A stretch of 64,000 nt of DNA, taken from NCBI GenBank assembly GCA_905178155.1, contig CAJINV010000004.1, forward strand, positions 3,063,014-3,127,013. The letters are read 5' to 3'. Position numbers and translations under genes: made by a program. Numbering within the stretch: position 1 is the stretch's first letter; each line of letters begins with the position of its first letter. This document shows positions 19,684-58,910 of this stretch, one piece after another. Source of the DNA: Amoebophrya sp. A120 (taxonomy: Eukaryota > Protista > Dinoflagellata). The notes under the pieces were generated by a model. That model did not search any database. It was given only the letters and a program-made list of their open reading frames with translations, and was not told where the DNA came from.

Positions 19684-22600
19684 CTAATTATATTTGTCAC
19701 TTCCCCCGACTCAGTATTTTTGGTTGAAAGCCTGCAGCGCTATTTTGCTGCAGGGTGGTCGGTGCCAGACTCCGGTACGGCTTGATTGATGACGGGGCCG
19801 CACTACCACCCGCAGCATATCGCAAGAAAAAACTGCTTCAATGTGAACTTGTGATGCAGTAGAGAACGAAGCACCAAAGTGTTTGTCTTGCTACACCTGC
19901 AAGACATTGGATTTCCTGGTGTGTCTTCCCTTGGGAAGCGCGCATAGCAAATTTTCCGTGTTTTGTGTAACAAACTTGTGATGCAGATCTTGCACTATCA
20001 CCACAGTGAAACAGTTTTTTCGTGGGATACACCAGGACGTTGCTGCAGTACCGCAGAGGAGGTCGAGGCCAGGGAATTTTGCGATCCGCGAGCTGTGTGC
20101 ACCTTCGGACCGACCGCGACGAAGTCACCTTTTTTCATCTTCGATGTGGCGCTCCGCGTTGTGCCTGGTAGATGTTGCTTTTGCAGATGCAGCCTTCACC
20201 CTCTTCACGAGTATTCGGATTCGAAGGATATATGCAAAGCCAATGGTAGCTGTACTTAAAAACTGAGTCTGCATAGAAAGCTACGGGCATAAAAAAACAG
20301 CAACAGTTTCTTTCTATACTTCTCCCTGTCCCCCCGGCAGGAACGGCCCCGGAGGACAGTAGCAACTCAGAGTCTTCGTCCGGGGCTTTCCAGCTGTCCA
20401 CCTTCGCAGCCGCCCGCCAGTGCACCGGCTTGGTGTTGACGGGAACCGCCTCGGAGGATCGTTTCAGGAACGGTTTTATCAAATGTAGAAGTGTCTGGGT
20501 CTGGAAGAATGCAACTTGTGATGCTGCGTTTCGATGACTCAAAAATTTGTGTTGCATGAGCAGGAAACAGAGTCTAAATTTTGCTATGCGGAGAGAGCAT
20601 TTGTCATGCGGAATGGGCATCAAGAATCCATCAAAAAACCTGTGATGCTAGGGCATGCATTACAGGCGTCATGGGTCATGAGAAATATGCATGACAAATC
20701 TTGCATTCTTCCAGACCACCCAGACACTTTTACATTTGATAGGTTTCTTTTCCCTGCGCTTATTCAGGGCGTCCTCGTTGTGCTGGGCACTCAGGCTGGA
20801 TCTCGTCCGGCTCATGGTCGTGCTGTTTGCGTAGCTGCTATGCAATACAAGTTTCCCGTACATGTACAGGATGCATCACAAATTAATAACTCCACCAATT
20901 TGGAGGGTAAGACTTGTCATGCTAAACTAGGATCGAAGCCAATTTTTGTCATGTAGAGACCACATTTGGACTTAAGTACGTGTACGGGAATTTTACTGTG
21001 GATAGCTGTAGTACGGATTTTTCTTGTTTCCCGTCCCCTTCGTGCCCTGCTTGAACCGGCCCGGAAACGCCCACCAGCCGGGGAACTTGTCAATTTTCGC
21101 GGTTTTTTTCGGCTTCCGGAACGTGCGGAACTTGGCGTTGTGCAGCGCTTTGGAAATGTCGCCGCACTGGCTGTGGAGCGTGGCATACAAGTGGTCGAGA
21201 AAACCCGGGTCCTCTGAAGCTGTGCCTTGCTCCATGTCCAAGATCATGTCGTAGACGTCGTGCGTTTGCTGGATCTGCGGCCACAGCCTTGCCAGCGCGT
21301 GGCGGGTGACGAAGCCGCGAATGAAGCCGGCAAAGAGCTGCATGTGTTCCGGCTTCAGGAGCCCGCGCAACTCGTTGTCCGTGCGGTAAATGTTTTCCTG
21401 GACGCTCAGGTTCGCCTGCCAGTTTTCCTGGTCGTACTGATTATTTTGGTTCGACTGGTTGTTGTAGAATTGCCCTTGACCTCCACCTGCCCCCCGCGTT
21501 GACAGGATCGGTGGTGGCATCGCGCCTGGCGCAGGGCGAACATTGTTCCCCCCGCCCGGGGGCGCACTTGCGTAGTACGGCGACGGGGCGAGCGCTGCTT
21601 CCTCCAGTGAAAGCGCGGAGTCGTTGGGGCGGTAGACGTTTTGCTGCGGGAAATTTGGCGGCTGGTGTTGCAGCTCCCCGGAAGACCCCCCAGTCTGGTG
21701 CGAAGCGACGCCTGAGGTTTTTTTTTTCAGAATAACTATTTTTTTTCCTACCAAAACAAATTCAGGCGATCGCTCTAGCGAAGCTGGTGCAGAATTCACA
21801 AGCGACGAGAGGGTGAAAAAGATAAAGTTGTGTCTGGGCTGCACGACCCAGTGTAGTGAACATGACGAGCATGACAGAGACAGCACGAAGAAGATAAGCA
21901 GTCAGGATTTTTGTTGCGTCTTGATCTTCATCGATAAGAAAGTCGAGATCATCATCTTCTGTACGGAAGACAGCTGCGTGCTGGATCGAGCGCGGCGTGT
22001 AGGTATTGGCTGATGGAGGTCCACCTCCGGGTGCCGGATACACGTTACTACTAGTACTTCCACGTGGCGGCGGCCCGTAGTGCTCACAGAAAGAACTTTG
22101 GTCACCAGCCAGCATGCCGGATGTGTTTGCACTCCCACCTCCTGGTCCGCCGAACGGTTGCTCTGGCACCAGAACCAACGACGATCCGACCACCGGGCCA
22201 GTTGTACCACCACGCGTTTGCCGCTGCTGCTGCTCGCTGAAGCTGGTCTCCATAACTGAGCGAGGGGTGTTGATAGACCGATCCAGAAAGCTTTCGCCGC
22301 TCACCCGCCCTTGCGGCATAGAAGTAGTATTTGCGCCACCGCTTCCAAACGCGAGCCCGGGAATATGACCTCCAGTTGTCCCGCCAGCTCCTGCTGTATT
22401 TGCCGCACTATTCGACGACGAAGCTGCACCAGCACCGGCAGCCCCGAACAGCCTGGAGGCAGCCGCACCCGCCGCAGAAGTTCCACCAGAATGAGGGTGA
22501 AGATTGTCCTGTTCACCGAGTGGCTTTGATCCGCGCCTGGACTCCGCAGGCGTGGTCGTCTGCGAGTTGGTCTCGGCCAGTTTGCTCTTGGTCTCCTGCA

Positions 22601-25600
22601 GGAACCGCTCGTGCTGCGAGACGGGCGGCACGTCGTTTTCCCCGTAGCCGTTTAACGAATTATCAAAAGTAAAAATGTCTGGGTCTGGAAACTTGTGATG
22701 CTGGGTGGCGTGTCATGATGAGGCTACAAATGCTGGCTCAGCATGACAAGTTTCGAAGCTCCTAGGTGTTGCCTATTCTGCATGACAAACTGCGGCTCTG
22801 CACCAGCACAGAAAGACGGAGCTCGTGGGTAACGTGCATGACAGATTTAAGAGTCATGCCAGACAAGCAAGACAAACATGAATTCTTCCAGACCCAGACA
22901 TTTTTACAGTTGATACGAATAAGCCCCGGACGATTTGATGGGCGCATCCTCCAAGTAGTGCCGTCGCGCGGTTTATGCAATACAAATTTCCCGTACATGT
23001 ACAAGATGCATCAGAAATTTCACCAATCTGGAGCGTGAAACTTGTCATGCTATACTAGGATCGAAGCCAAGTTTTGTCATGCATAGACCGCATTTGTACG
23101 TGTACGGGAAATTTACTGTGGATACGGTTTGGAGCTGCGACCCCAGCGTGGTGTCTGCCTCGCTGTCCCGGGCCTCCCAGATCGTCGGCTGCGTCTGCAG
23201 GTTCACAACGCCGGCTGCCTGCTGCGCCTGCGATTGCTGTGTAGGGACGAAAGGTGGTTGAAAAGACCCGGAAGTACTAGATGGAGGTGCCATCATTTTC
23301 CCTGGAGGTGGTTCCGGGGCATCGCCGTACCTTGGGGAAGGACGGTATCCGCTCCGGGCCGAACCGGGCGGAATCAGCTGAGCGTCGTCTTGCTCTTGCT
23401 GTCCGATCTTTTCGCTCCACGACAAGTTGTTCATTCCTGCTGCTGCTCGTGCGGCCCTACTCGAAGATGCTGCTGCCGTGGCTCCTGCCGCTGCCGAAGG
23501 TCCAGCGTTGCTGAAAGGAGTTGTGCCGGCATTGGGCTGCATCCCGCCGTAGAGTGGCGTTGCTCCCGGAATGAATGCACTACTTCCACCCCCACCGACA
23601 TAATCGCCGCGACTCCCCACGGCCGGGGAATCATAGCCGAGGTTGCTGCCGGGGTAGCTGTCAAACGAGCCAAGTCTGGCTCGGCTACTCCGGACGGAGG
23701 CCGGCGCCGCCGCTCCGCCGCCACCATACACCGCCGCGTAGGAAGGCGCAGGGACGTTCAGCTGCGGAATAGCGGTTCGGCTGGCAATACTAGGACCACC
23801 ACCACTCTGCTGCTGGTGGTTCTGCTCCACTTCTACGGAAATCAGCGGATCCTTGCCTGTTTTCGCCAGAGTTTGGATCCTGCTCTCCAGCGACGCTAAC
23901 TCCTCGGCTAGGTTTCGGTATCGACTGCGCTTCTGCTTCATCTTCTGCGCTTTTGCCGAGGACGCAGTTGTCGCTCCTGCTTTATTGCCGAATTTTTCCC
24001 TGCTGGACGCCATGGCGGTCGCGGCGTCGCACCGGTCGAGAAAAGCTCTGCGCGCCCGCTGCTCCTTCGTGTTCGGCGACAAATCTCGTTCTTCGGCAGC
24101 ATTTGTTCCGCCCGCTGGCGTTCCGCCAGCATTCTGCGGCTGAAAGAGCAGAAGTGGTTTGGCGAACATCGTCGGCGTGAGGTCGGATTCTTCCTCTAGC
24201 TTTTTGATCTTCCGTAACGTTTCCAGCGGCCCGTTTTTGCTTTTGTCCAGCAATCTGAACCACTTTCGCAGCGCCCGCGTTGTCCCGCGTCGAAACCGCC
24301 ACCAGGATTGCAACTTCGCAGCCCGCTGGTGCAGCTCGTGCAGGCGCTTCCGCCGTTTGGGCAGCACGACCTGCAGCCGCCACCACTTCTGGATCAGCCG
24401 CGCATTGCGGTCCCGAATCGCGCTAAGCTTCTGCTTATCCATTGCAAAAACATCGCACTCGTTGTACTAGAAATTGCAATTATTTTCAACGTGTACAGTG
24501 CCCATTTATTTTAAGTACTAGCTGAACTAGCATTACAAATTTCATTTTTCCTTCTAAGAAGTCTGAAAATGCAATAATTCCTCCAACTCCAACAAGAAGT
24601 ACGATACTGTTTTGCAAAAATGCATACTGCTGCAGCTGCTCCACTTTCTGTTTCTTTTTCAGCAGCTCCTTTTTCGTCATCCGCTTCTTTCTCGTGGTTG
24701 GGGGCGCAGGCAGTGGTGGCGCGGCGGTGGTGGTCGCAGCTGCGGCGGTTCCACCATTTCCAGATCCAGTGCCGCCGCCTCCGGTCGATGTCCTTCCCGT
24801 AGTTTTTGAAGATCGAGCTTGTGCTGGCGATTTATTTTGTAGCACCACCGGCACTTCATCAACATCATCCTGTCGACGAGCGGCTGCTGCAGTCGACGAT
24901 TGCGACCCGCCACTGGTGAAGGACCCGGGCGCCGGCTGCAGCGTTGATGTCGGTATTTGACCTGATTCCGCCTGCGTATCGACTTTCATCTTCGCCGATG
25001 AGGATCTACTGCCATTGGTCGGTGCGCTCACCAGCTCAACTGGCGAAGAGAGTTTATTCTGCTGACCCGCAGCGCGTCCTCCGGAGGGGCTACTTCCTGA
25101 AGCTCTGGCTCTTCCCCCGCGTTCTCCTTCGGTCTGAGATCGTAGTACCTCCTTGCCGCTAGGCACGATCTGAGAAAGTTCATCGTCGTCGTCGTGGTTT
25201 ACCTGGGGAGATGACGAGGAACCTCGTGGACCCCCTGGTTCACGACCGCCGCGAGATGATGAATTATAATTACTGCTATTTCTCCCTTGTTGCGCCGCTG
25301 GGCTTTCCACACGGGTCCCGTCGTGCTTGTTTATGTTAACCAGGCGCCGGGGACTGGAGACTTGGTGCGGGAGGTCGGCCGTGGAGACCAGGGCCGTGTC
25401 GGTGTGAATACGATCATCCTCAATCGCATACCCGTTTTCGTCGACAAAGGCTCCCGTGTCTGGGTCCACGAAGTAGCCGTCGCGGTCCACAAAACGGCCG
25501 TCTGAAGGTAATTATTCGTGAGATAATGTGATTATAGGAGTTTGATTTCGGTATTTCTATTTGTGCAGGCAGCAGCTTGATGTTCAGGATCAGGACCGGC

Positions 25601-28315
25601 ACCGGCTCGCCGTGAAGGTACCCGCGTACATACTGCGCAAGCGAAAGAAACAAAAATGCATTTATACATCTTCATCTTTAATATGATCCACAGAAGAAGC
25701 ACAGCCAGCTACGGTTATTCCTGACGAACAGGGCGAGGCAGATCATGAAACAAGAACATCAACAGCAACTCAAGCCTTCGCCTTATACTCGCATCAATGT
25801 AGTTCCCGGTTTTTTTGTCAATCAAGCGGCCCGTGGCGTCACAGGGAATGCCTGCCATGTCGACGAAGCTGCCGTCGGCCTGCTCGAAGATCTCCATGAT
25901 TTGCTCCTCCTCCCTCGGCCGCGTGAGGGAGATTACCGAGCTTTTCGACCCCCGGGCGCCACCTGGAGGACCTCCAGGCGACGACGACTTCGGCGAAGAG
26001 ACGTCTTCAATGCCGCCAGCACCAGATCTTCCTTTCGACGCGCTGCTTGAGGCGGGTACGGATGCCGGGAGGTAGGACACCTGGGGCTCGGGGACGTGGT
26101 AGTGTCCGTGTTTTACATTCGGCTTGTTCGCCGTCTATGCATTGCAAAAGGAATATCGCCCTGGTTCTATTATGAATTGCGTCACAAATCTTCTGAAGTA
26201 CAAAAATGCAATTAGTCATGCAAGTTCAGCTTCAGCTAGAGCGTTGGGTTTATTGTCATGCATGACGGCACTTACTTCGAGTTGTACGATACTTTTGCAG
26301 TGCATACCGTCTTCGAGGGACTCATGGAGGAGTTCTTCCGCGTGCTCGACGAGGACGACGCCCGCTCCTTCGGGGACCGGAGAAAAGCGTTGCCGGAGGG
26401 AGATTTTTTCAACGGAATGACCGTTCCGTCGTCCTCCAGAGTGTAGTAGCCTTCCTCGTCCTCGTAGATTTGGCTGACAATGCTGGTGTTTTCCCGACTC
26501 GCAACGTTGGATGTTGAGCTACGCCGTTTCTTGCTTGCAGAAGATGATGAACTGGTGGGTTCTTGTTGTGGTCCACCATCGTCCTGTTGGTCTTTCTCGG
26601 TATCGCCAACTTCCTCGTCCTCTGTGCAGGAAATTTCGGTGGAAATAAAGTGATCAATCTCATTCGAGATTATGTTGAAGAACCAGAATAATAAAAAGAA
26701 CCGGGTTATTAAACATAGGTCGACGACGACCTCAGCAATCAATCTTCAAAGAGGTGGATGCTGAGCAACTAGTACAAGATTAAGATAATATTAATAGGCT
26801 ATAACTCGTAGTTTGAGGACCATCATCATATTTCTGCCGCGAGCGTGCTGTCCTTTACATTATATCAAAATCAAATACGAACAATACCATCCTCCTGATC
26901 TTCTTGTTCCTCTAACAACGCTCCGTCCTCATCCACCAGTCGTCCATGTTCGTCGACCAGCCGGCCCTCCTCGTCCACAAACCGGCCATGCAGGTCCACA
27001 AAGTTTCCGTCTTCGTCAATGTAGCGGCCATCTTCGTCCACGTAGCGGCCCTCGGCGTCCACAAACCGACCCGTTTCGTCGATGAACCTTGATCGTTGGT
27101 AGATTGGTGTGTTGAGAAGTGGTCAGGTGGTCGAAGATACAGATACTCCTGATAGTACTAGTAGGTGTTAACACCGATGAGAAATCTGATTCTCGTGTTT
27201 GAAACAAGACGAAAGTAGTACGTGCTGGGTTCGTTCTTTCACGTGCTCGACAAGTATAATCATTTTCGTTCAAAGGTAAATCAAAAACCCTAACCCACCT
27301 CCCGTCGGCGTCGATGAATCTTCCTTCCGCGTCTATCAGCCGCCCATCGGCGTCCACCAGGTGTCCGTCGGCGTCCCGGAGGTGGCCGTCTTCGTGCTCA
27401 TAGATCTCCAACGGCCCGGCATCCTCGACTTCGTCGGGGTGTAGGTCTTCGCCCTCGGCACGGAGGACGGAGTCTACTTCCTCATCTCCGGCTGGAGCCC
27501 CTCCAGCTGGCGTACTAGTGCCGTCGTCGTCTTGTTCCTTTGTACTGTACAGAAACGCTTGCTTGTAATTGTAATTATGAACAATTTGACCACTTTGTTG
27601 AGCAGTATTGTTCATCTGCCGGTAGTTGTAGTTCTTCTTCTGCTGCTGTAATGCGGACTCGGCGGCCTTGCGGATCAGGGAATTCCTGGTCGTACCGTTT
27701 TTGCGGTTCCACTCGGGTGAGCTCGCGAGGTCGTCCGAGGTTTCCTCCTCCACAATGTCCAGGTGGTAGCTATTGATGGCCGTGGACGTCGGTGGAACAT
27801 TAAACGTCGCGGCGCCAACATTCAGTACCGTACTTTCTGTCCCCGCGGTCCCAGTGCTCGAAGATGACACAACACCTCCGGTTGGTCCTCCGGCGGGTAC
27901 AAAAAGCGTCCTGCTACTGTTCTTGTGCGTCGTCCCTGCAGGAACAGAGGAACTACTAGAAGTTTGCAGCTCTGCGGTGCCAAGTGAGGGTGCTGGAGGT
28001 GGCCTCGCGGAAGTTGTAGAAGAACTTGTGCCTGTGGTCGAGGATCCGCCGGCAGTTGCAGCTGCTCCTCCTGCGCTCAAACTTCCTAGTCGCTCCTCGA
28101 TCTTTCGCGACAACTTCTCCCGCCGCTCCTGCAGTTCGCGGAATCGTATCCAGGAAAAAACACCCATCCCCATCCAATTTGTCATGCAAAATATGCATAA
28201 ACTCCAGTGCTTGTCATGCAAAAAAATGGATGGGGACGCGTGTTTTCTCCTGGATAAACCGCTCGCTCAGGCTAGGCCGCTCCGGGGACACGGATTCAAC
28301 GCGCAGATGAGCCAT
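19684..28315 (-). CDS. Very large multi-exon protein with DxxGRx[VI] heptad repeats and IQ-like motifs
   Basis: Starts MAHLRVESVSPERPSLSER|FRELQ at 28315; exons join in frame across 8 TIR elements; repeats DADGRLIDAEGRFIDADGR; IQ-like LIQKWWR and KLQSWWR; ends ...LSRGSDKYN*. Some junctions (about 20150-20320, 21715-21850, 26640-26880) were not resolved exactly. Confidence 0.7.
19818..20029. mobile_element. Introner-like TIR element (family F-like)
   Basis: TIR tatcgcaagaaaaaactgcttcaatgtg / cacagtgaaacagttttttcgtgggata; flanks cagca/cacca. Confidence 0.87.
20477..20741. mobile_element. Introner-like TIR element family A
   Basis: TIR tatcaaatgtagaagtgtctgg / ccagacacttttacatttgata; perfect TSD ggttt; junction REKKP|FLKR. 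Confidence 0.93.
20839..21004. mobile_element. Introner-like TIR element family B
   Basis: IR ttcccgtacatgtac / gtacgtgtacgggaa; flanks gctgc/gctgt; close relative of 22974-23124; junction NPYYS|YANST. Confidence 0.92.
22661..22915. mobile_element. Introner-like TIR element family A
   Basis: TIR tatcaaaagtaaaaatgtctgggtctggaa / ttccagacccagacatttttacagttgata; perfect TSD cgaat. Confidence 0.93.
22974..23124. mobile_element. Introner-like TIR element family B
   Basis: IR aaatttcccgtacatgtacaa / ttgtacgtgtacgggaaattt; perfect TSD cggtt; junction QLQT|ARRHY. Confidence 0.93.
24436..24626. mobile_element. Introner-like TIR element family D
   Basis: TAT..ATA ends, perfect TSD ctgct; junction EQLQQ|KLSAIR. 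Confidence 0.9.
26136..26306. mobile_element. Introner-like TIR element family D
   Basis: tatgcattgcaaaag / cttttgcagtgcata; perfect TSD ccgtc; junction PSKT|ANKP. Confidence 0.92.
28147..28256. mobile_element. Introner-like TIR element family E
   Basis: tatccaggaaaaaacac..tccccatcc / ggatgggga..gtgttttctcctggata; flanks aatcg/aaccg. Confidence 0.9.
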
Positions 28316-29755
28316 CTTCAACTTCAACAACAGACGGCAAGGGCAGGAGCTGCTGCGCCTTGGCTGCTCTTATGTTCTTCTTGTCATGGTCAACATGAAC
28401 AACAAGAACAAGACACCAACATCACTACACGCTGCATAAGCAAGATGTACGCTTTATGATTGAAGAGCAACATCTCAGTGAGATTCAGGTTGCGACGAGA
28501 AAGCTACAAGGACTGTATGGCCGGATAATTCTTCATCTCGCGAACGGTCGAGCAGCTCGAGAACCTCCAAATGCGAGGACTACTACATTGCAAATAACCA
28601 GTGGAGCTACTACCACGTACGACGTCGTCGAAAAGCATAGCAAAACCGATTCTTTCGAAGGACAAGCGAGACGAGGGCTACTACGTACAACAACTTAAGT
28701 AGTGCGTTTACCGCAAGCTGGCGGGACTACTTTCAACAACCTGTATTTGCACTCGACGCAAAAATCCTCCTCTCGATGTCGCACAGCACGTGCTGATGCA
28801 GCTGTAAGGCGAGCAACAAAGCCGGAATCAACATGTGGTACCACAAGCTGCAACATCAGGAACATACCACGTATATAAAGTGTCGTGATTGGTACAGGGC
28901 AAAAATGGACCATACCTCATCAAGGATAGTGCAGCTCAAGGACCACTCTTTCATCCTCCTACGAGTTGTTTTATGTGTTTTTCCATTGTGTTATTTCCAA
29001 TGGTTCAATGTTGAAGATTTTCCTGCTCGTACAGCACGACGGCAGGCTGGAAGCGAGTACAACGGGGACCACACGGACGAGGTGCTCTAGTGGCGTCCTC
29101 CACGGGGTGAACATCGTCCGATTCTGACTTTTCTTTTGATCGCACTCGGACCACTCGGGTAGAAAGGAAAATTCGGAAATCAAGATGCACGTTCATGAAG
29201 TTCAGGTTGGAAAATTTCTCCTCAGCAGCGCTAGAAGTAGCGCAACCCCGACGCTAATTAATTGCAGTTGCACCTTCCACTTCCTGCGGACACCACAAAA
29301 TGCGCATCAAGTTGCTTCTGACGCTGACGTGACTCGCAGTCCTCACGCCCAGAAGTTCGCGACTGACATCGCAACCGTTTTCGTCGTGGCATGGAGCACT
29401 TTTTTCATCGCCTCTTGAGGAACCACTCTTCTCCGTCTCCCCGTTCTTTGCCTTGGGTGACCAGCTCGACGGGCGACTCGGTTTATTTCGGTCATCAAGA
29501 AGAAGTAGAAGTTGCTCGGTATATCAACCTCCCCTCACAGCTGCCGGCGCTGCAGCCGGGTCTGCTATCCGGCACACTGCTGAAAGCGCAGCGCAGGTAA
29601 GAAGTTCCTCAGAAGCGAAGCATACCTTCAGATTTCCGGAGTAGCCCGAGATCGCACTACAGAAGCTCGTTTTTCTATCTCACAAAGTTTCCGGCCCGGC
29701 GGTCTGAGAGCTATTCGAAAGCTTGGCTCTTGCCCTGCTCCCAGCGTGAAAGGGT

Positions 29756-36526: not shown

Positions 36527-36545
36527 TGTTTTACCAAAAAAAATA

Positions 36546-41391: not shown

Positions 41392-44300
41392 TTATTTCTT
41401 TGTGATGTCGTCGAGCCCGGCTTGAAACATGGAAAACAGGTCATCGTCATCCACATCAAACAGTTTGTCTGTAGTCTTCGCGGCGGATGAAGATGATGTT
41501 GTCGCGGCTGCAGTTGGTGCAGCGGGAGGAGGTGGGACTGTGCTTGTAGATGCAACTACGGAAACCGTTCCGCTAGGTGGGGCTACAGGTCGTACAGCAG
41601 GAGCAGTACTACTACCACCCGACTGCGCCGCGGCCTTCGGACTCGTGGTCGGAGTGCCGATGCTGTGAAACTCCACCGGTTGTTGATTCCGCAAATCCAC
41701 GCTCTTTGGTGCCTCTAGCACGACCGTCTTGTCTGGAGAGGAGGAAGGTGTACCTCCTCCGACAGGGGCCATGTTGCCCGTCTGCAAAACGGGGACCGGC
41801 ACTGCTGGTGTTGTTGAAGCTGCTGGTAGTTTCGTCGAACTTGCTCCTGCTGTCGGCGCTTCTTTACTCGGCGGACTACTGGCGGGATTGCTGGAATTGT
41901 TGAAAAACAATTCGTTGATGTCCGAAGTGACCTGCGAAAGGGAAAAACTTGACGCGAAGCTCGATGCCGCGGATTGCGACGCAGATGAGGATGCCGAAGT
42001 AGTAGAGCCGGCGGATGAGTTAGTTGCAGGAGTCCCCGTCGTACCAGCGGAAGATAATTTACCGGCTGCAATTGTTCCCCCTGGAGGTCCTCCTCCGCTC
42101 ATGCTGGTCATCGTCGTTCCAGTACTCGGGATCGGCGGAAAATTTTCGTCCTTCAGCTTGGACAAAAATTGGCCCGCGGTACCGAGCAGCTTCTCGCCGC
42201 CGGTTGTGATCCCGCCGAGCAGATTCTTTCCCGCGGCCGCTGCAGAGGCGGGAAGCTGGTTTTGTTGATGCTGTTGTTGCAACATTAGTGCAGGACCACC
42301 AGGGCCTCCAGCACGTCCCGTTACAACCTCCCAGGCCGCTTGGATCACTGGTTCCTGCTTTTGTTTGTGTTGCGAGAAGTCCGCTTTTGTCTTCTGTATC
42401 TTCGCCGCACAAGCCTCGCCAGCCAAAAGTCTCTTCTCATACTTGCTCAAAAACCGCTCCAGCTCCTGCCAGCACCGGTCCCGGACCGCGATGGCCTTTT
42501 TCAAATCCAGCAGAAGTGCCTCCTTCGGTCGTGAGGGAGCCGGCGCGGGGGGGTGTTGTGGGGCCATAATTCCTGTCGCGGCGGCTTCAGAAGTCGACGT
42601 AGTTCCACCTGCTGATGGAGCTGCGAAAAGAGGGGGAGCATGCTGTCCACCACCACCAGCACCGCTCACCGCCGGCGCGGCTTCGTACACTGCCACGCAG
42701 CAAGTTTCGACCAGTGTCATGGCCGTTCGCAGGCGCGTGGCTTCCAGGTCCAAGTGTTTCTCCCCGGCGCTCAGCAAGCCGGTGTAAACTTCGCTCGCCG
42801 ACTTTTTACGCTCCTCAATGGCGAGGTGCAAGGTGTCGGCCTGAACAGTTTTGAATTGGAAGAAAACATCGCATCTTCTTCACGAGGGCAAGAATCGAAT
42901 GCATGTGCATCCAGATCCAACACCAGCAGCCACTGCGAAAATATGCTGATATCGATCCACCACGGCACTCCCAACATCACTTCGCCGCTTGATCTTGAAA
43001 TCCGGATGGTGCAGCATCAACATCAGCTTCAATGATGTTAGTTTGGAAAGCAAACAAAAAAAAATCGCCGAAACGAAAAAGGTCACTTTTGGAATCTGTA
43101 TATGCTTCAGGCTGGAGCGTAGTATAAATACAAAATCCGAAAGTAGAAAAAATGCATTTTATGTAAGTACCTGTGTTTTCCCCCCGCTGGCGCACATTTG
43201 CTTGATCGCGTGAAACAAGGCCTGGTCGCGGAGAAATTTCTCGTCCTGCAGTTTCAAACTCTGCAGGTTTTCTTCGTAAAAGACCAGTGCGTTCTCTGAC
43301 TCCTTCTTCAGTGCGTCCTCGCTGTGCTCTACCCGGGCGATCTGCTGCTTCAATTCGGATAGCTCCGTGACAACCGTTATCCTGAGTAAAAACGTCCACA
43401 CCCCAGAGTTGTCATGCAGATTTGCAATGGCAGGAAGATTTGTGATGCGTATCCCCATGATAGGCATTTTCGATCGTGTTTTAGAATTTGCAATGCGGTA
43501 AACAGGATTAGGATTAGCAGATTGATTTCTAATGCGGCTATCCTTGCCAACCTGCACTACACTACGGGCTGCAACGTGTCATGCGCGACGCCCAAAACGT
43601 CTCGCTTTGTGTTGCGAAGTCCCCATCTTGACTCTGGGGTGGGGACGTTTCTACTCAGGATAACCGTGCTCAGCTGCTTTTCCAGCTCCTCCTTTTGCTT
43701 CTCTAACTCCGCCACCCGGTCTTGCACCTCCTTCTTTCCGTCCGTCAACCCGCCGAGCTGCGTCCCGAGCTCTTCGCGCTGCGTTATGGCGCTCGCAACT
43801 GTTACATTCTCAACTCTTACATGAATTTGTGATGCAAGAATGGAAAAAGTGGACGAGGTGACCTTGCGCGTCTTGCGTGACAGATTTGGAACAGTTTCTC
43901 AGCCTGTTTGGCCCTTCAGGAATTTGTCATGCGAAGCAGCTTGACCGTGCCGATTCATTTCATTCTGATTGTAGTTTTGCATGACAAATCATGTAACAGT
44001 TGAGAATTTAACATTTGAGAACGCCATATGCGTCTTCTTCGCGTCCTGCAAAGATTCCTTGCGCTGCTGCATCTTCTTCCGCTGATCCTCCCCGTTTTGC
44101 AGGCTTGTGTCAATCCCCGCAAGAATACTGGACCACGAGCGCGCGTACGAGGTTGTAGTGGCGGAAGGGGAACATGTAGAAGTCGTGCCAGTCAGGGATG
44201 TTGTTGACGATCCCTCTGCTGTTACAACCGTGCTGGTCTGAGAGATGAAATTGGATCTTCTTTCGACTGTGTTGTACCATTTCCACCACTTGGTTGTGTG

Positions 44301-46989: not shown

Positions 46990-48453
46990 CTACTTCTTCT
47001 TCGCCTGCTTCTTTCTCTCCCCTTCGATGAGTTTCCGCACCTTTTTGTACTGGTTTTTGGTCAACTCCTCCCCGTTGACATCGTGTGTCGGAAACCCGTC
47101 GGCATCGATATCAAATGCAAAAATGTAGTCTGGGTCTGGAAGAATGCAAGACTTGTCATGCATATTTCTCATGACCCATGACGCCTGTAATGCATGACCT
47201 AGCCTCGCAGACTTCTGGAGGGCTTCCTGATGCACATTCCGCATGAGAAATGCCCTATCCGTGTAGCGCAAAGTGCACCCTTCTTGCTGGTCATGCAATA
47301 CAATTTTTTTTGGAGTCCAAAAACAGCATGACAAGTTGCAATCTTCCAGACCCAGACATTTTTGCATTTGATAATCGAATTTTGAGTACAACGCCGGGTC
47401 CTTCAAATCGACGGCGGAATTGTTGGCTGCCGTGGCGTCGGCTCCTGCAGGCGCGGCCGTAGTTGCGGCCTTGGCTGAGGCTGTACCCGGTGCTGCTGAT
47501 GTAGTAGTGCCAGCACCACTGCTGGACGCCTGCGCAGAGGCGGTTGTAGAGGTTGACGAAGATGAACCTGGGGTGATGAATAATAGAGTGGTAGAAGTCG
47601 GTCGATGGATAGTTCAAACGATAACGAGGTTTCGTGATCCTTCCACGACTCCTACGACCTAAAAAGAGCAAAAAAAAGGTTCTACCTTATCAAAACCAGA
47701 CATCTTCTGAAGGTCGTTTGCGCGGCTGTAGTCCATCATCATCTTTATGCATATTATCGTACTCTTCAGTGAAAAATCATACTTGTTAATACCCTCATGA
47801 AACGATCCGTCTGGGCGCACGATGTTTGCGGTTTCTGGTCTTCGAAAGTTCGGATTCACTGCCTGGATGCGGAAGCCATCGGGACGGGGGAGCGGCTGGT
47901 AGAAGTTAGGGTTGGTCGGCACATAGCGGTAGGCGATAGAACTGACACCGGAAGTAGAGTAGGTTGACGCTGAGGTGGTAGAAGTCGCTGGATTTTTTGC
48001 TGTCGCTGTCGTACTAGAGGCAGTACCGGTTGTGCGAGGGACGGGAACGAATGCTGCGGAGGATCGATGAATTATGGATTTGAAATTATCAATCTACCCC
48101 ACAGATGACGAGTCAGTGACAAACACAAACCAAAACCAAAATGCACTCAATTGCGGTGCAGTTGTGAATAGGGCTCCTGCAAGTGAATCTAGTACTAGTA
48201 CATGGTTAAAAAATAGAAATGGTAAATAGATACTGTGTGTTGTCCGATCACAGATACACGCAGCTGCAAAGATGAAACACAAGGCGAGTACAAGCAATAA
48301 ATAACGGATACCTGCACTACTGGCTCCCGCTGCTGCACTCGTAGGTTGTACCATCGCAACAAGTTTCGTGCCGGTTCCAGCCGAAGCTGCGACCCTCGAG
48401 GCTGGAATGACCACCCGATGGCCAAATAGTGACTTCACGTGGTTCAGATCCAT
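46990..48453 (-). CDS. Multi-exon hypothetical protein ending in a cysteinyl-tRNA-synthetase C-terminus-like segment; start uncertain
   Basis: [31 protein letters not shown] resembles the YSKFDENGLPTHD..GKELSK..KKL tail of eukaryotic CysRS; no HIGH/KMSKS catalytic domain visible. Confidence 0.55.
47109..47373. mobile_element. Introner-like TIR element family A (opposite orientation to 20477)
   Basis: tatcaaatgcaaaaatg / catttttgcatttgata; perfect TSD atcga. Confidence 0.94.
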
Positions 48454-49956: not shown

Positions 49957-52741
49957 TCACATTTCCGGCACGGAGGAATCCAAGCCGATTTGGCTCGCCA
50001 CCCCGCTGGCCATGCCCAGCTCCCGGATCAGCGCGTCCGCGTGCTTAAACACCGGATTATCCTCCTCCCCCAATTGGCTTTTGCTGTCGATCAGCTTTTG
50101 CATTGCCTGCAAAAACTGCAACTGGTACTCCGATTTCTGCTTCAGCGCGTTGCTCTTCAGCTCGGCGTTCTCGAGCTTCAGGGCGTCGCGCTCGTTCTCG
50201 ATGACCGCCAGTTTCTCCCGAATGACCAGTTCGTCCAGCACTGGCCCCGTTGTCTCACGCAGCTTGCTCGCATCCCCGCCGGCCCCGCCCGCGGTCTGCA
50301 GATCCGTGGCACCCTCCGACATCACACTGCTCATGCCCCGTAGGCCGCTAGACGATGTCGCACCCATCATCCGCAGCGCAAGCACCCGGTCTCGCTGCTT
50401 GGTCACCAGCTGCATCTTGGAGGTGAGCAAGTCGTTTTCCTGCAAGAGCCTGCGCGCATACGTCACCAACCGCTCCAGCCGAAACTCCATGCTCTGCTCC
50501 CGCGCATAGACAGGATTTTCCTGCGCCCGCTCGGCGGCATCGTAAACGCCTTCGACTGAACGCAGCTGCTGTGCCAGGCTGCCCCCACCGCTGCGCCCGC
50601 CCCGCGAGGCGGCGGCCTGTGCCTGTCGTGTGGATCATACATACCATTCTCCTGTTGTAGCAAGCGGGTGTGGATCGTACGAATTCATTGTGAAGTGGAA
50701 CGCAAGTGGAAAAACGAGAACAACATGATCACAAGTCGAACTACCAGATATAGATACCTCTTGCTGCGCGGCTTGAAACGCTTGCTTGAGCGACGACATT
50801 TGGTCTCGGTACGTGCGGAGGGTTTTCACCAGGATTCGCTCGTGGTGCCGCTGCATGTCCTCCATGTCGTCTAGGCAATCCTCCTATGGATTGCAAAAAT
50901 GTCTGGGTCTGGAAGATGTCATGCTTGTCTGGCATGACAAAAAAGTTTGTGATGCGTGTCCAAGAAGAGACCCTAGTTTTGCCTGTCATGCAAAAACGCA
51001 GTTTCTCATGCGAAAAACGCAACACAAAGAAGCGCAGATATTTCTCATGCTCGGCTGTGCATTACAGAGCGTTCACTATAATTACCAACACAGCATTACA
51101 AGTTTGAGTGTCCAGACCCAGACATTTTTGCACTTGATACCTCCACGCTCCCATAGCCGCCGTCCCCGATGACGTATCCGTTGTTTTCCTTGTATGGCGT
51201 TCTCAAACGTTACACTCTCAACTGTTACATGACTTTGTCATGGAAAATGACGACGAGCCACTAGACGACCAAGCTGCTTCGCATGACAAATTCGCTGAGA
51301 GCTAAATAGCACTAGAATCCGCACCAAATCTGTAATGCACGACGCGCAGGGTTCTCCCTCACGCTCACCTGTACTTTTCTCGCATTACAAATTCCTGTAA
51401 CAGTTGAGAATGTAACATTTGAGAATCCCATACCTTGTGCTGGTAGAAGTTCTTCGGCAGAATGGAGGAGATATTAAACGCGTTGTTGGTGCTCTGCAAG
51501 TCAGAGTTTTTGTACTTCTCCAGCCGTCCATTGCGCTGCCACTCCCGAAACGCGAGCTTCAGCAGGGTCGGCTTTTTGTGCTTCGCGACCTGATCACCGA
51601 CAAAGACGCCCGCACGCTTCCCCAAATCCTGCAGCTCCACGCGACGGTGGACGACGTTGAGCTGAGAGTGCGAATTTGAAGATAAGTACATAGAGTTTCA
51701 TAGCAGGTGCAAACGCGAGCGTTCTTTTTGTGCACTTGAACTTCATCTTCTCTAGCAACATTTCATCTGAACAATGTGACGAACAGATTTCCCTTTAATT
51801 TTGTTTCGGCACAATCTTCAAACACAAGCACAACTACATAGTACCCATGCGTGAAAGGTGATTTTTCTCCGGACGCGTTGGCTGAGTTGGTTCGAGATAG
51901 CCATCTCCACGACGGACTGGGCCTGTTCCATGCGCAGGTATGCATCGCAAAACAAGTATCGTACGTAGAAGTCGTTGTAGTTATATTTCGCAGCTCCTAG
52001 TCCTATGCATTACCATCATCTGCTCAATCAGCATGACAAAGTCCAACAATTTTTTTTTCTCATGCTGAGCAAATTTGTAATCCAGTTGCTCCTACTTAGT
52101 ACGATACTTTCATCACTGTGGATAGCAGAGCCACGTTCTCCACGATTTCTTCGATTTCACCCCGCATGGCGCCCACGCTGGTTTCCACGCGGGTTCGCAC
52201 CTCTTGCGTCACCGAGTTGTATAGTTCCTGGAGCTGGTTCATGGTCGGCCGGTTGGGCCCGTGGTGCTCCTTCGCCACCCACCAGGCGATGAAGGCCTTC
52301 TGCAGACACATCTTCCGTCCCTTGATCAGGTAAGGCACTTTCATGTCGATCAGGTGCGCTTCGTCAATCTCGTTCGCAGGAGCGTGGGTCCTGGTTGTAA
52401 ATAAATTACGATTACCATCCATCCACATCCACTATCACATCTGCATGTTCGAACAGTCGCGTTGCACACGATGCGAACTCGAAGGAACAATCTAGGGAGT
52501 TGTTGGAATCAACAGTAACACAGCCAAGAAAACCAGAAGGGTACTACGAGGACGAAAAAATCAAGCGAGGCCTTCATCGAAGCCACGAGTGTCATAACTT
52601 CATCACTTACCCGAGTTCCTGCACCAGGGTTCGCATGTCGGCAAGGAGGGCGCCTTGCTTCAGACTCTCCACGGGATTATTCATCGGCGCAGTCCCCTCA
52701 TCGGACGTGACCGCATCGACCACACGGGAAGCTGTCGCCAT
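49957..52741 (-). CDS. Multi-exon coiled-coil hypothetical protein
   Basis: Starts MATASRVVDAVTSDEG; in-frame joins NVAL|RMEQ, FYQHK|ENNGY, GSVE|DCLDD across three elements. Confidence 0.7.
50885..51139. mobile_element. Introner-like TIR element family A (yields GT-AG)
   Basis: tgcaaaaatgtctgggtctgga / tccagacccagacatttttgca; perfect TSD cctcc. Confidence 0.93.
51193..51432. mobile_element. Introner-like TIR element family C (yields GT-AG)
   Basis: tatggcgttctcaaacgttacactctcaactgttac / gtaacagttgagaatgtaacatttgagaatcccata; perfect TSD ccttg. Confidence 0.94.
51939..52124. mobile_element. Introner-like TIR element family D
   Basis: aagtatcgtac / gtacgatactt IR; TAT..ATA ends; flanks gcagg/gcaga. 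Confidence 0.87.
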
Positions 52742-53862: not shown

Positions 53863-56559
53863 TCAGGAGTTAAATAGCCGCATTTCCAATCTTCCCCCGT
53901 GGCTGCTATAGCGGCAGGCCTTGTACGGTGTGTAACTGACCGACAACACATCGAGGCTGTCGAGGCGGATGCCGCTGGCTACCCAGCCACGCACGGTGTA
54001 GTCGATGCGCGCGACGGCTTTTTCCTCCCAGGGCACGTCCGGCTGGTTCTGCGCATTGCTGCTGTACCGCAGCACCGCCTTCAGGTGCAGTTTGGTCTCC
54101 AGGTTCCCGATCTCCAACACGAGCAGTCGGCCCTTCTCATCAAACCTGCCCACCATGCTGTCGTCGAAGTATGCATTGCAAAAGCATCGCACTACTGTAA
54201 ATTGCATGACAAACTATCTCAGCAAGACAAATGCAATTTGTAATGCTGTTTTACCTTGAGGAAAACATTTGTCATGCATATTTGCAATTACAATTAGTAC
54301 GAGTACAATACTTTTGCACGACAGGATACGAAGGTCACGCCGGCGATGGACTCGGGCACGCGAATCTCGATCTTGAACTGTTCCACTGCCACCTGGGAGG
54401 TTTTGTAATTGAAGCAAAATCAAAATAAAGAATCATCCTCAATGTCGAACTTCTCCTGATGTTTGTCTCTTCCATCATGATTTTTCGAGCATCTGATTTC
54501 TTGGCGGCACCGCCGGTCATCTTACCTTATTCTGCCTGGTGATCGATAGTCTGGGCGAGACCTCGATGTCGAGCAGACCCTTGTCGCTGTGATACACCAG
54601 CGAGCCACGAAAGTGGAAGGGCAGCTTTATGTTGCTGTCGTTGCGCCAGTAGCTGGCAAGCTGAAACTGCCCGTCGGGAGGCACAAATTGCAAAACCTTG
54701 TCGCGATCGAACCTAGAATGATGTTTTTGTTGATTTTGGTTGTCTGTGACGAGCTGGACGGCGCATAAAAGTTCCAATGCAGATGCTTCAAGTCGAAGTA
54801 ACTTTGCGGATGGAAAATCTGAAGATCTAGACCAACTGGGACTAAGACAGCGGTGTACTTTGGCAATTTGACGCAGGGGTGGAAGGACGCGTTTTCCAGC
54901 ACCTGGGGCTCTTTCAACGAGATTGCCACCTCCGGCTGCGCGCCGCTGAGCTATCACACAGAAAAAAGCAGGCAGGTCATATTTGTAATGCAAAGATAAA
55001 TTAATACACAGAACAATCTGCATTGCATATGCTAAGCAGCACGCTATGGGGCCGCCTATGACAGATTTTTCAGTGTATTTATTTTTGCATTACAAATCCG
55101 ACCTGCCTGCTTTTTTCTGTGGGATATGAGCTTCGAGGTGGCCAGCATCTCGCCCACGATGCCCCCCGCGATGATGAGTCCGTTCTCGTCCAGGATCATG
55201 TCCGCGCGCTCCACCGTGTCCACGTAGATTTCGTTGGTGGTGTAGATCGCATCGGCCTTTCGCCACCACACCTCGTCGGAGGGTCCGCCAATTTTTGCCG
55301 GTGTCTGCCCCAGCGCGGCCCCCAGCGTGCTGGAAAGCGTGTTCCAGGTGTCCGCGATATACCCGCTGCTGTCCGGACTGGAGCTCTTCTGCGCTTTCGG
55401 GTCCACGGTGTCGTTTCGAACCACATTCGGCTTGCCGCCGGCCACCACCTGCGTCACCTTCTTCAGCGTGGAGGGTGGATCGATGATGCTTTCCAGTGAA
55501 TTCAGCTCCAGGCTGAAGGGCGCGCCGGAGCTGTCGATCATTTCGTCGAGCAGCAGGTAGACGGAGGAGAAGTTCTGCCGCAGCAAATCATCGGTGAGAG
55601 TCTGCTCGGTAGAGGACGCGAAGCAGTAGCGACAAAGCACTTTGTGAATCCCGCCCAGAACCTCGATCACGGTGCTATTATTTTTTGTATTTCGATGATT
55701 TCCAAAAGAAGTAGGAGGTTATTTTGCCGAGGACATATAAACGGAAAGCAAAAAGAAAAAGTAAATGACGAAAGAAAATTATTTGCAACTGACGCTTGCA
55801 AATTGAGCTTCTTGGGGTTGGGGGAAAACAACAAGGGAAGGAACCGCTATTTACGCCATCAATCATCATATGTACAGTGGCGGCACTTCCTTCGTTACCA
55901 CGGCCAAGTAGACCAGTCTGTCCCTGCAGATGTGTATCAACGCCATTTTTTCGTTGTCTGCTCGTATTATTTTCGGAATCTGATGAAGGCTGCCTACCTG
56001 GAGTAGATGAAAAAGGTAAGGATTTTCATTACAATAGCCTGTTCCTGGTTATTTGTCAAGCCAGATGAATAGGAGCACGACGTGCACATCACATCAGAAT
56101 AAATCACGCCAATCGAAAACTCTTCTTATACATCAAAAATACGATCCTGCTTTCCGTTTTCGCGTTCACCCGTCTTCTTCTTTTTGACGGCGACCGCCCG
56201 TTGATGCTGTTCCCGCCGCTGGTGGCTAAGCTTCCCTTGGAAAACGATTTGCGCTTGTCGGGGCTGCGGTGGTTGTTTCGGATGGTCTCCAGGTACTCGA
56301 GAAAGGGCTCGCAGACCGACCGCGGCGCGGTCTGTTTGTATCCTGTGCAAAAGTATCGTAGTCGTACACTCGTACTAATCGCATTCATGCATTACAAGTT
56401 TCTTTCTCAAGTTGAATCCGCATTACAAATTCTATTCTCATGCTGAGGAGATTTGTCATGCGATTTATACTAGTACGATGCTTTTGCATTTCATAGTTTG
56501 TAGTGCTTCTCCACCACAAAGCTCCCCGTGGAGCTGATGATGAACAGAGAGTCGATCAT
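53863..56559 (-). CDS. AP3M: AP-3 adaptor complex medium (mu) subunit, multi-exon
   Basis: MIDSLFIISSTGSFVVEKHYK|QTAPRSVCEPF; EVPPLTVIEVL; NFSSVYLLLDEMID; WRKADAIYTTNEIYVDTVE; SFHPCV; FVPPDGQFQLASY; ASGIRLDSLDV..YTPYKACRY. Confidence 0.92.
54170..54328. mobile_element. Introner-like TIR element family D (reverse orientation)
   Basis: tatgcattgcaaaag / cttttgcacgacaggata; perfect TSD cgaag; junction AGVTF|DDSMV. Confidence 0.92.
54952..55126. mobile_element. Introner-like TIR element family F
   Basis: TIR tatcacacagaaaaaagcaggcaggtc / gacctgcctgcttttttctgtgggata; perfect TSD tgagc; junction TSKL|SGAQPEV. Confidence 0.94.
56339..56495. mobile_element. Introner-like TIR element family D
   Basis: tatcctgtgcaaaagtatcgta / tacgatgcttttgcatttcata; perfect TSD gtttg. 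Confidence 0.94.
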
Positions 56560-57582: not shown

Positions 57583-58910
57583 TCAGGTAACATCGTCCAA
57601 ATTAGGCTCGGCCGCGGAGCTGCAGCTATCCTGTGCCCCGACGGAGGACAGGCCGTCGTTATGCTCGACCATGAGGCTCGACGTTGAGCAATTTTCGCCT
57701 GTAATTCCATCTTGTTCACCATCACCCCCCGGTTGCAGCGCTATGATTCTACCTGCCGCGTTTCGTGATCTTGCACCGCCCCTTGAATGCTGCTCACGCA
57801 ACTTGCTGCCAACTGTGGTTCCTCTTCCTCCATCTTCCGGCGGAAACAAGACGTCTGACCCACCTCCGTGTGCATGCAGTAGATGATCCTCGTTTTGTTC
57901 ATCCATGTCGTCACCGAACAGAAGCCGCTTGTGATCCTGCGCAACACGCACAAAATCCTCGTAATCGAGGGTGGCAAGTAGGTAGTCGGAGCACATTAGC
58001 GGGCACTCACCTAGAGGAATGGAGGAAGCATTATGATGTAGTTTGAAAGAACTGGAATTCAGCAAGAGCAACTTGAAATATTCTAACCCGGATTTGCTCT
58101 TGTGGTGTCTTAGTAGAGGCATGATCTGAAGTTGTTGTACGAGCAAAGTAGATGAGACAGGGCTTTTTTTCTTCTGCCCAAGTAAATACCCTCAAGCTGT
58201 CTGAGAAAGAGTTGGCAGACCAGTTCGAGCTCTTCCCCCGAGCAGGCATCAAAGGGCTCGAGCAGCGATTCCATGAGGAGGCAGTATTGTTGGTAGCAGG
58301 TGTACCAATCAAGCGGAAAGTCGTCCTCGCGGTCGTCGAACTTTCGTCCGTGCTGCAGGAATATGCCATGCAAAAGTATCGCAGTAGTATAAATCACAAT
58401 ACAAACTGGCTCAGCATTACAAATCAAATTTGTAATGCGGATTCACCTTAACAAGTAGAATTGTAATGCATAACTGCGATTACCACCAGTACGATGCTTT
58501 TGCACAGGATAAGGAAGTACTGCGTTACCGCCTCCGTAAACCCCGGCTCTGCGCAGAAGTCCTCCAGCTGCGTCAAGATCTCGATCCCCCGAGCGCGAAC
58601 TTCCGGCTGGACGAATATTGGACAAAAGGAATATGAATAAATATCTTATGTATTTATATTTTCTTCATAGTGATGCTAATAATTCGGCTACACATTCGCT
58701 GGGAACAGTTGACATAGAAGTGATGATAGCATCAGTCGCTATAGGAACACTTACTCGAAGAGCAAGATCCTCCAGAGACTCGTGCTCGTTCTGTAGTCGT
58801 CCCGTGGTGTCTTCAGTTTTGCCATCGCAGGCTGGTGGCGGTTCAGCGAGCATTGCACCGCCCTCGTTCATCTTCGCAGCCTCGCCTTGCTCCTCCTCGA
58901 GCGAGGCCAT
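57583..58910 (-). CDS. BART (ARL2/3-binding) domain protein, multi-exon
   Basis: TQYF|LQHGRKFDDREDDFPLDWYTCYQQYCLLMESLLEPF...YLLATLDYEDFVRVAQDHK matches the ARL2BP/CFAP36 BART pattern. Confidence 0.7.
58362..58511. mobile_element. Introner-like TIR element family D (reverse orientation)
   Basis: tgcaaaagtatcg / cgatgcttttgca; perfect TSD aggaa. Confidence 0.92.

What the first reader, a model, noticed from the sequence alone, without database searches (positions are those of the whole stretch)
20477..58511. The same element works as an intron in either orientation
Seen: all host genes are on the minus strand, yet family members are inverted relative to each other. In family A, 20477-20741 and 47109-47373 have reverse-complementary interiors (gcattacaggcgtcatgggtcatgagaaatatgcatgacaa). 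The same holds for family E (28147 vs 36903) and family D (37058/56339 vs 54170/58362). Established: spliceosomal branch points and pyrimidine tracts are strand-specific. Inference: excision depends on the symmetric ends or a TIR hairpin that juxtaposes the junctions, which suggests structure-guided or non-spliceosomal removal.
Basis: partly seen in the sequence, partly recalled or inferred. Interest (0 to 1): 0.7.

Follow-up and report, generated by a model that had tools for sequence, protein, structure and literature searches.

The report
Reversible transposon introns in Amoebophrya
These are already published mini-transposon introns of the marine parasite Amoebophrya; copies facing either way sit in genes and are missing from likely-RNA contigs without the usual GT-AG signals, likely because the splicing machine reads their symmetric ends, which gives a testable rule for an unexplained kind of splicing.

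Summary
Observation confirmed. 20477 and 47109 are 81% identical in opposite orientation (65% same way); families D and E are also inverted. The window is Amoebophrya sp. A120; the elements are its published introners (Farhat 2021): TAT…ATA ends, 5-nt target duplication. Likely-RNA contigs (one sample) skip them in minus-strand transcripts that also lose GT-AG introns. 47109 itself has no displayed joint, and the public protein reads through it. Among 206 family-assigned copies, mostly from a related assembly, orientation is unbiased. Flanks show no GT/AG preference, and no strand-specific branch-point motif appears. Seven mismatched duplications allow one common cut: one base before TAT, four after ATA. 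That does not show non-spliceosomal removal: introners in Polarella and Aureococcus also work both ways, and I found no G·U excess to show RNA-level selection on the stem. Best model: a relaxed spliceosome guided by the ends (0.55), against a hairpin nuclease/ligase (0.28). This scan already noted the same rule on other pieces of this genome. Known system, useful refinement.

The parts
20477..20741 (.). Family A introner, one orientation; perfect 5-nt TSD
   Evidence: Joint 20471>20742 in 4 of 4 likely-RNA runs; 3 stops if retained
47109..47373 (.). Family A introner, inverted relative to 20477; perfect TSD; 270 nt, in frame and stop-free if retained
   Evidence: 81% reverse identity; A25 ortholog P0044 lacks the 90 aa; contig arithmetic favours removal; annotated protein P0036 retains it
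8526..8806 (.). Family A introner, same orientation as 47109; TSD 1 mismatch
   Evidence: Clusters with family A; skipped by P0037, a 100% identical database protein; allows cut offsets 0-3
22661..22915 (.). Family A-prime introner
   Evidence: Joint 22654>22915 in 4 of 4 runs
50885..51139 (.). Family A-prime introner, inverted relative to 22661
   Evidence: removal restores a minus frame; no joint displayed
28147..28256 (.). Family E introner; TSD 1 mismatch
   Evidence: X3 contig piece stops at 28141 and the record goes on for 169 nt (joint itself not among displayed rows); removal gives the 1979-codon ORF
36903..37011 (.). Family E introner, inverted; TSD 2 mismatches
   Evidence: Joint 36898>37013, one contig of run X4 only, 40-nt side; offset 0 would create a stop codon
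37058..37222 (.). Family D introner, orientation 1
   Evidence: Joint 37052>37223, one contig of run X4
56339..56495 (.). Family D introner, orientation 1, in the AP-3 mu gene
   Evidence: P0001 skips it; the 313-nt gap in X1 record 4 equals the two exons exactly
54170..54328 (.). Family D introner, orientation 2, in the same AP-3 mu gene
   Evidence: P0001 skips it; A25 ortholog P0002 is continuous apart from a 2-residue gap beside the site; no joint displayed
58362..58511 (.). Family D introner, orientation 2
   Evidence: removal restores a minus frame; no joint displayed
13634..13781 (.). Family D introner, orientation 2
   Evidence: Removal joins 243 and 827 codons on minus
62264..62417 (.). 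Family D introner, orientation 1
   Evidence: X1 piece ends at 62258
24436..24626 (.). Diverged D-like introner (orientation 1, weak call)
   Evidence: Joint 24430>24627 in 4 of 4 runs
26136..26306 (.). Diverged D-like introner (orientation 2)
   Evidence: 855-nt gap in X3 record 8 equals the three exons (198+315+342) without it
61273..61460 (.). Diverged D-like introner (orientation 2); TSD 2 mismatches
   Evidence: X1 record 6 joins 61267 to 61461, while a contig of run X5 runs through it unbroken, 58414-62292
51939..52124 (.). Diverged D-like introner; TSD 1 mismatch
8199..8466 (.). Family B introner; TSD 2 mismatches
   Evidence: P0037 and homolog P0038 fit only offsets 0-1
36575..36810 (.). 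Family B introner; an empty-site duplicate lies at about 35535-35620
   Evidence: the X4 contig has a single TSD here but cannot be told from the duplicate
43785..44028 (.). Family B introner
51193..51432 (.). Family B introner, inverted relative to the other three
   Evidence: removal restores a minus frame
19818..20029 (.). Introner; TSD 1 mismatch
   Evidence: Joint 19812>20030 in 4 of 4 runs
20839..21004 (.). Family C introner; TSD 1 mismatch
   Evidence: Joint 20831>21003 in 4 of 4 runs
22974..23124 (.). Family C introner
   Evidence: Joint 22968>23125 in 4 of 4 runs
48..201 (.). Family C introner; TSD 2 mismatches
43378..43662 (.). Introner of a family with a strongly one-sided interior
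54952..55126 (.). Introner in the AP-3 mu gene
   Evidence: P0001 skips it
7964..8133 (.). Introner found by the element finder
   Evidence: P0037 skips it
19700..28369 (-). Host gene with 8 introners and 5 GT-AG introns; one stop-free frame of 1979 codons after joining
53863..56559 (-). AP-3 complex mu subunit gene holding family D copies in both orientations

Best explanation
These are non-autonomous TIR DNA transposons (the published A120 introners) that sit in exons in either orientation and are missing from likely-RNA contigs together with one 5-nt target duplication, likely cut by a relaxed U2-type spliceosome that reads the element's symmetric ends instead of GT-AG. Steps: (1) a transposase inserts the element with a 5-nt duplication, with no orientation bias (TSD and orientation counts shown; transposase inferred). 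(2) Because each end is the reverse complement of the other, either strand presents the same N-UAU start, the same U-rich…AUA end and a predicted terminal stem (sequence shown, fold predicted). (3) The cut falls one base before UAU and four bases after AUA, a distance rule that ignores the flanking bases (the only offset that fits 7 of 7 informative sites; assumed general). (4) Element plus 5 nt leaves, restoring the pre-insertion mRNA (shown). (5) The catalyst is the spliceosome, with the stem or an end-binding factor standing in for U1 and AG recognition (inferred, untested).
For: Removal: 6 introner joints in 4 of 4 runs, in the same contigs as GT-AG joints, plus 2 in run X4, one more, and exact gap arithmetic for 26136 and 56339. 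No orientation bias in 12 families, 206 copies (33:24, 24:14, 21:16, 11:11; summed majority 122, null mean 120.8, P=0.42). No flank constraint: G before TAT in 67 of 235 (flank G 0.33), AG at the 3' cut in 22 of 235 (flank 0.08). One common offset in 7 sites, chance 0.035 under independent uniform offsets. At that offset the intron starts N-TAT; 7 of 12 canonical introns examined start GTAT and 11 of 12 GTA. Farhat 2021 (sections 10, 16) found all but 6 of 89 spliceosomal proteins and U2, U4, U5, U6 in A120, with U1 undetected; a review reports that Fritillaria's spliceosome removes non-canonical transposon introns (PMC11282704, passages).
Against: No direct evidence for the spliceosome (no lariat or snRNA data). 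No G at +1, no terminal AG, and YTRAY within 56 nt of the end in only 30 of 235: every classical signal except U at +2 is missing. A YAG in the last 45 nt is present in 182 of 235 and is passed over in the joints seen, even where the start is GT (22661). The offset rests on 7 sites, two read from database proteins, one from a single contig in one run and one (28147) from a piece end. All likely-RNA runs are one sample; contigs hide rare forms. P0036 retains 47109.
Confidence: 0.55

Rival explanations
1. A second, non-spliceosomal system: a nuclease recognises the terminal RNA stem, cuts 1 nt 5' and 4 nt 3' of its base, and a ligase joins the exons, as proposed for Euglena nonconventional introns.
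For: Ends are predicted to pair in both orientations (mean pairing 0.79 sense, 0.80 antisense; above 0.5 in about 99% of 235). Cuts are at a fixed distance from the stem with no base preference. Internal YAGs are passed over. In Euglena, mutagenesis supports a role for terminal inverted repeats, and circular excision products are cited (PMC12501133, discussion).
Against: No G·U excess on the transcribed strand (133 G·U vs 149 A·C; isolated mismatches 74 vs 89), sense folds are no more stable than antisense (120 of 235), and the fourth pair is unpaired in 95 of 235. These tests have low power. The start matches the host's G-TAT at +2 to +4. No candidate enzyme was identified.
Confidence: 0.28
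2. Ordinary splicing: each orientation carries its own conventional branch point and uses GT/AG recruited from the ends or target duplication, as in Aureococcus and Polarella.
For: Both-orientation intron creation is published for those species (bioRxiv 10.1101/2020.10.14.339549, parts 1-2). Three window copies (13634, 50885, 51193) can be read as GT-AG.
Against: GT/GC-AG is possible in any register in 17 of 235; contig joints at 19818, 20477, 22661, 22974, 24436, 36903 and 37058 have no such register on minus. The repeated interior motif lies on the sense strand in 11 of 11 copies of one orientation but 1 of 11 of the other in one family, and 4 of 4 vs 0 of 3 in family E. No sense-specific 4- or 5-mer passes correction for 246 and 462 tests.
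Confidence: 0.05
3. A hybrid: the spliceosome catalyses, but a branch adenosine inside the terminal repeat (for example the invariant A seven bases before the 3' cut) and the stem do all the positioning, so there is a conventional branch point, only a symmetric one.
For: A at -5 and -7 and a T-run at -15 to -18 are shared by all families and both orientations (the terminal ATA was required by my finder, so its invariance is by construction). An unreviewed note of this scan raised the -7 A.
Against: The bases around that A fit YURAY poorly (T at -9 in 44%), and it would be paired in the predicted stem. Overlaps with the best explanation, differing only in where the branch lies.
Confidence: 0.1
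4. The elements are removed from DNA (somatic excision or empty alleles) and not from RNA.
For: The runs are only guessed to be RNA, and an empty-site duplicate of 36575 exists at about 35535-35620.
Against: The same contigs skip GT-AG introns and have zero depth at 32077-34424, whereas run X5 covers the stretch evenly at about 30, enters the ends of the elements and runs straight through 61273.
Confidence: 0.02

Closest known systems
Introner elements of Amoebophrya sp. A120 (Farhat et al. 2021, PMC7789003; read: abstract, sections 10, 11, 12, 16, passages, supplement passages)
   Same: Same organism (P0001 and P0036 100% identical, source-named A120); inverted repeats starting TAT, then about seven variable bases, then AAA; 3-5 nt direct repeats; non-canonical boundaries; hairpin proposed; co-oriented gene blocks.
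   Different: The paper calls splice positions variable or unknown (Fig. 3 legend). Its 4 uses of 'orientation' all concern genes, and 'strand', 'branch point' and 'lariat' have 0 hits in the main text. Here orientation is counted and a single 1+4 offset is derived.
Polarella glacialis ILE classes 1, 2, 3, 6, 7, 8, 10 and Aureococcus anophagefferens introners (Roy et al., bioRxiv 10.1101/2020.10.14.339549, parts 1-2 of 4 read; Huff 2016 not read)
   Same: TIR/TSD transposons that create introns in either orientation.
   Different: Those recruit GT/GC/GA and AG from the ends or target duplication, and classes 6, 8 and 10 show a bias to one orientation; here there is no dinucleotide requirement and no detectable bias.
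Euglena nonconventional introns (PMC12501133, discussion and passages; PMC11282704 passages)
   Same: MITE-like ends, direct repeats at junctions, terminal pairing set a few bases in from the cuts, coexistence with GT-AG introns.
   Different: Different end code (CAG/CTG), tested by mutagenesis, circular products cited; a distinct machinery is suggested there and untested here.
Fritillaria borealis non-canonical introns (PMC13326754 listing and passages; PMC11282704 passages)
   Same: Transposon-derived introns escaping GT-AG, handled by an altered U2 spliceosome.
   Different: They keep preferred terminal dinucleotides (AG-AC, AG-AT); A120 introners show none.

Membership tests
Amoebophrya A120 introner elements | Located in Amoebophrya A120 genes | tested here: met
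   P0001 and P0036, 100% identical and source-named A120
Amoebophrya A120 introner elements | Terminal inverted repeats starting TAT-N7-AAA | tested here: met
   End composition of 235 copies
Amoebophrya A120 introner elements | 3-5 nt direct repeat at the boundaries | tested here: met
   19 of 28 window copies perfect, 9 with 1-2 mismatches; empty site at about 35560
Amoebophrya A120 introner elements | Repeated, in families | tested here: met
   12 families, 206 of 235 copies
Amoebophrya A120 introner elements | Removed from transcripts, mostly without GT-AG | tested here: met
   runs are guessed RNA, one sample
Aureococcus/Polarella-type both-orientation introners | Introns formed in either orientation | tested here: met
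Aureococcus/Polarella-type both-orientation introners | Splice dinucleotides (GH and AG) recruited from element end or TSD | tested here: not met
   17 of 235 GT/GC-AG in any register; no G or AG enrichment at the 1+4 cuts
U2-type spliceosomal intron | GT/GC…AG ends | tested here: not met
U2-type spliceosomal intron | YURAY-like branch site near the 3' end | tested here: inconclusive
   30 of 235, but the host's 12 canonical introns examined show no obvious consensus by eye either
U2-type spliceosomal intron | Excision as a lariat, dependent on U2/U6 | not testable with these tools
   Needs lariat sequencing or inhibition
Euglena-type nonconventional intron | Terminal pairing required for removal | tested here: inconclusive
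   Stem predicted in both orientations, no G·U excess
Euglena-type nonconventional intron | CAG/CTG end code | tested here: not met
   Ends are TAT…ATA
MITE (non-autonomous TIR DNA transposon) | Cognate transposase elsewhere in the genome | not testable with these tools
   No whole genome held; no transposase Pfam hit among 30 window ORFs scanned

The most novel reading that the evidence does not exclude
Amoebophrya runs a second, spliceosome-independent mRNA splicing system that measures from the base of a transposon's terminal hairpin (1 nt 5', 4 nt 3'), so any TAT…ATA insertion in any exon, facing either way, is removed without a scar.
Probability: 0.28. Interest if true: 0.85.

Novelty: already known. 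Interest (0 to 1): 0.42.

Why it matters
The elements and their odd boundaries are published, and both-orientation introners are known in other protists, so the headline is not new. What the window adds is a constraint on an open question, how A120 splices tens of thousands of GT-AG-free introns with no detected U1: the whole signal must fit in the symmetric ends, interiors and flanks are free, and the cut offset appears fixed at 1+4. That rule can be tested directly by lariat sequencing and reporter mutants, would correct gene models (P0036 likely carries a retained introner), and explains why these transposons can invade exons at little cost.

Tried and rejected
No whole genome is held, so genome-wide counts were replaced by 134 loci from one metagenome scan (scan truncated, chosen by a family A end motif, organism not given). 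Of 332 elements found there, 330 could be scored, 212 got a confident strand call and 207 were kept after dropping minority-strand calls; with 28 window copies this gave 235. Candidate 63785-63849 was dropped (no target duplication). The plus-strand 436-codon ORF at 7443-9312 was considered as a plus-strand host and rejected: P0037 maps to minus. G enrichment before TAT: none (67 vs 58 antisense, P=0.40). The interior repeat as branch point: rejected. G·U test and sense/antisense fold stability: null. Stronger TIRs in coding than non-coding copies: no difference, but only 8 non-coding copies. Raw-read RNA runs X9 and X10 laid only on one element end and gave nothing on splicing; run X5 swamped the joint table, so real joints at 43300-63299 were not displayed. 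No listed holder is on record as RNA. Rfam: 0 matches. Pfam: 2 of 30 ORFs matched. Element 48-201 could not be used for the offset. Paper searches and term look-ups found no statement on introner orientation or a fixed offset in Amoebophrya; most subscription papers, the published Roy 2023 version, Huff 2016 and the figures of Farhat's supplement were not seen.
Full report
Observation. The window holds 28 elements of 109-285 nt with TAT…ATA ends, terminal inverted repeats and a 5-nt target duplication, perfect in 19; the finder gave no hit in 5 Markov controls. The inversions are real: 20477 vs 47109 81% reverse and 65% forward, 28147 vs 36903 82% vs 71%, family D pairs 72-76% vs 57-63%, and family B likewise. 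A duplicate of the 36575 flank at about 35535-35620 has one copy of the 5 bases and no element, an empty site.

Identity. An exon at 55128-55718 is 100% identical to an Amoebophrya sp. A120 protein, an AP-3 mu subunit by its homologs. The ends match the description of A120 introners in Farhat et al. 2021 (PMC7789003, section 11).

Strand and removal. Contigs of four runs (guessed RNA, one sample) show joints at 19818, 20477, 20839, 22661, 22974 and 24436 in all four, each skipping element plus 5 nt, in transcripts whose other joints are CT..AC, i.e. GT-AG on minus (15 of 19 joints displayed). Joints at 36903 and 37058 come from one contig of run X4. Gap arithmetic shows removal of 26136 (855 nt) and 56339 (313 nt); 61273 is joined directly while a contig of run X5 runs through it. 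Joining 19700-28369 gives one stop-free frame of 1979 codons on minus, against 35-59 stops in the other five frames. A codon model calls minus at 27 of 28 junctions.

Both orientations. Family D: 56339 and 54170 lie in the same gene facing opposite ways; annotated P0001 skips both and the A25 ortholog is continuous, with a 2-residue gap beside 54170. Family E: 36903 has a joint; at 28147 the contig leaves the DNA at the duplication border, joint not displayed. Family A: 20477 has a joint; its inverted relative 8526 is skipped by P0037. Against: the public protein P0036 reads through 47109, which is 270 nt and stop-free. The A25 ortholog lacks those 90 residues, and a retained 574-nt piece should have ranked among the displayed pieces and did not, so I infer removal, but no joint was seen. 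58362, 13634, 50885, 51193 and 43785 rest on frame restoration only.

Larger sample. One scan gave 134 loci, 463 kb, with the same families. Of 332 elements, 207 with a confident, locus-consistent strand call were pooled with the 28 window copies; removing element plus 5 nt restored a coding-like frame in 133 of 203 isolated copies, against 47-58 for out-of-frame removals. In 12 families (206 copies) no orientation bias appears: 33:24, 24:14, 21:16, 11:11 and smaller; summed majority 122, null mean 120.8. These copies have no RNA evidence of their own.

Signals. GT/GC-AG is possible in any register in 17 of 235. G before TAT (67 of 235) and AG at the 3' cut (22 of 235) match flank composition. 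YTRAY occurs near the end in 30 of 235, and no sense-specific k-mer passes correction. The repeated interior motif is one-sided in two families, so it cannot be a required branch site. A YAG in the last 45 nt exists in 182 of 235 and is passed over in the joints seen.

Cut position. Where the two duplication copies differ, the retained base limits the offset k (duplication bases before TAT that belong to the intron): 19818, 28147, 61273 give 0-2, 36903 gives 1-2, 8199 gives 0-1, 8526 0-3, 20839 0-4. Only k=1 fits all seven; chance 0.035 under independent uniform offsets. The intron is then N-TAT…ATA-NNNN, in both family E orientations. Canonical introns here begin GTAT in 7 of 12 and GTA in 11 of 12. 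Farhat's Fig. 3 legend calls the border variable or unknown.

Hairpin. The ends are predicted to pair equally in both orientations (0.79 and 0.80), but G·U is not favoured over A·C on the transcribed strand (133 vs 149), and the fourth pair is open in 95 of 235. The stem is available but not shown to be selected at RNA level.

Mechanism. The signal must lie in the symmetric ends. I favour a relaxed spliceosome (0.55): a nearly complete one is reported with U1 undetected, the start mimics the host donor at +2 to +4, and Fritillaria is a precedent. A Euglena-like hairpin nuclease/ligase stays open (0.28).

Novelty. The system is published; both-orientation introners are published for Polarella and Aureococcus, where they recruit ordinary dinucleotides. 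My searches found no statement of orientation neutrality or a fixed offset for Amoebophrya, with the gaps listed under Tried and rejected. Unreviewed notes of this scan reached the same 1+4 rule and either-orientation removal on other pieces of this genome; I had derived both before reading them, and they are not independent support. Verdict: real, known system, a useful and testable refinement.

Noticed in passing
window 46990-48453 (-): Public protein P0036 contains the 47109 introner translated in frame (90 aa absent from the A25 ortholog): likely an annotation error, or real partial retention. The conserved C-terminal tail resembles that of cysteinyl-tRNA synthetases (recalled; no Pfam hit).
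   Followed up: partly
window 35535-35620 vs 36543-36869: Duplicate of an exon without its family B introner, 1.2 kb downstream: a pre-insertion duplication or an intron-free copy.
   Followed up: partly
window 30387-30544: Decayed family A-like element with only one recognisable terminal repeat, lying where contig coverage of the neighbouring transcript ends: a possible example of decay outside exons.
   Followed up: partly
window 20476-21005 and 22526-23127: The pair of introners A + C recurs in the same order, about 2.1-2.2 kb apart in one gene; the two C copies are 83% identical although the exon peptides differ.
   Followed up: no
window 8199-8872 and 50761-51444: An adjacent B + A-type pair occurs twice, inverted as a block (608-nt blastn hit), and again in locus L027.
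   Followed up: no
window 5178-6668 (-): Intronless alpha-kinase ORF (PF02816, E 6e-35) with a 488-codon antisense shadow ORF.
   Followed up: no
window 31044-33629: Direct repeats (31044/31473, 32529/33261) and a 501-codon minus ORF with no Pfam hit and zero contig depth at 32077-34424 in four runs.
   Followed up: no
window 26901-27387: 21-nt tandem coding repeats giving an acidic 7-residue repeat in the 1979-codon protein.
   Followed up: no
window 36380-36525: Short tandem repeat of about 14-16 nt in a canonical intron.
   Followed up: no
window 1-260 (-): The host of element 48-201 reads like a cyclophilin C-terminus (recalled, not tested).
   Followed up: no
12 canonical introns examined: 3' ends are A/C-rich with little pyrimidine tract and no obvious branch consensus, suggesting that ordinary splicing signals are also relaxed in this organism.
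   Followed up: partly
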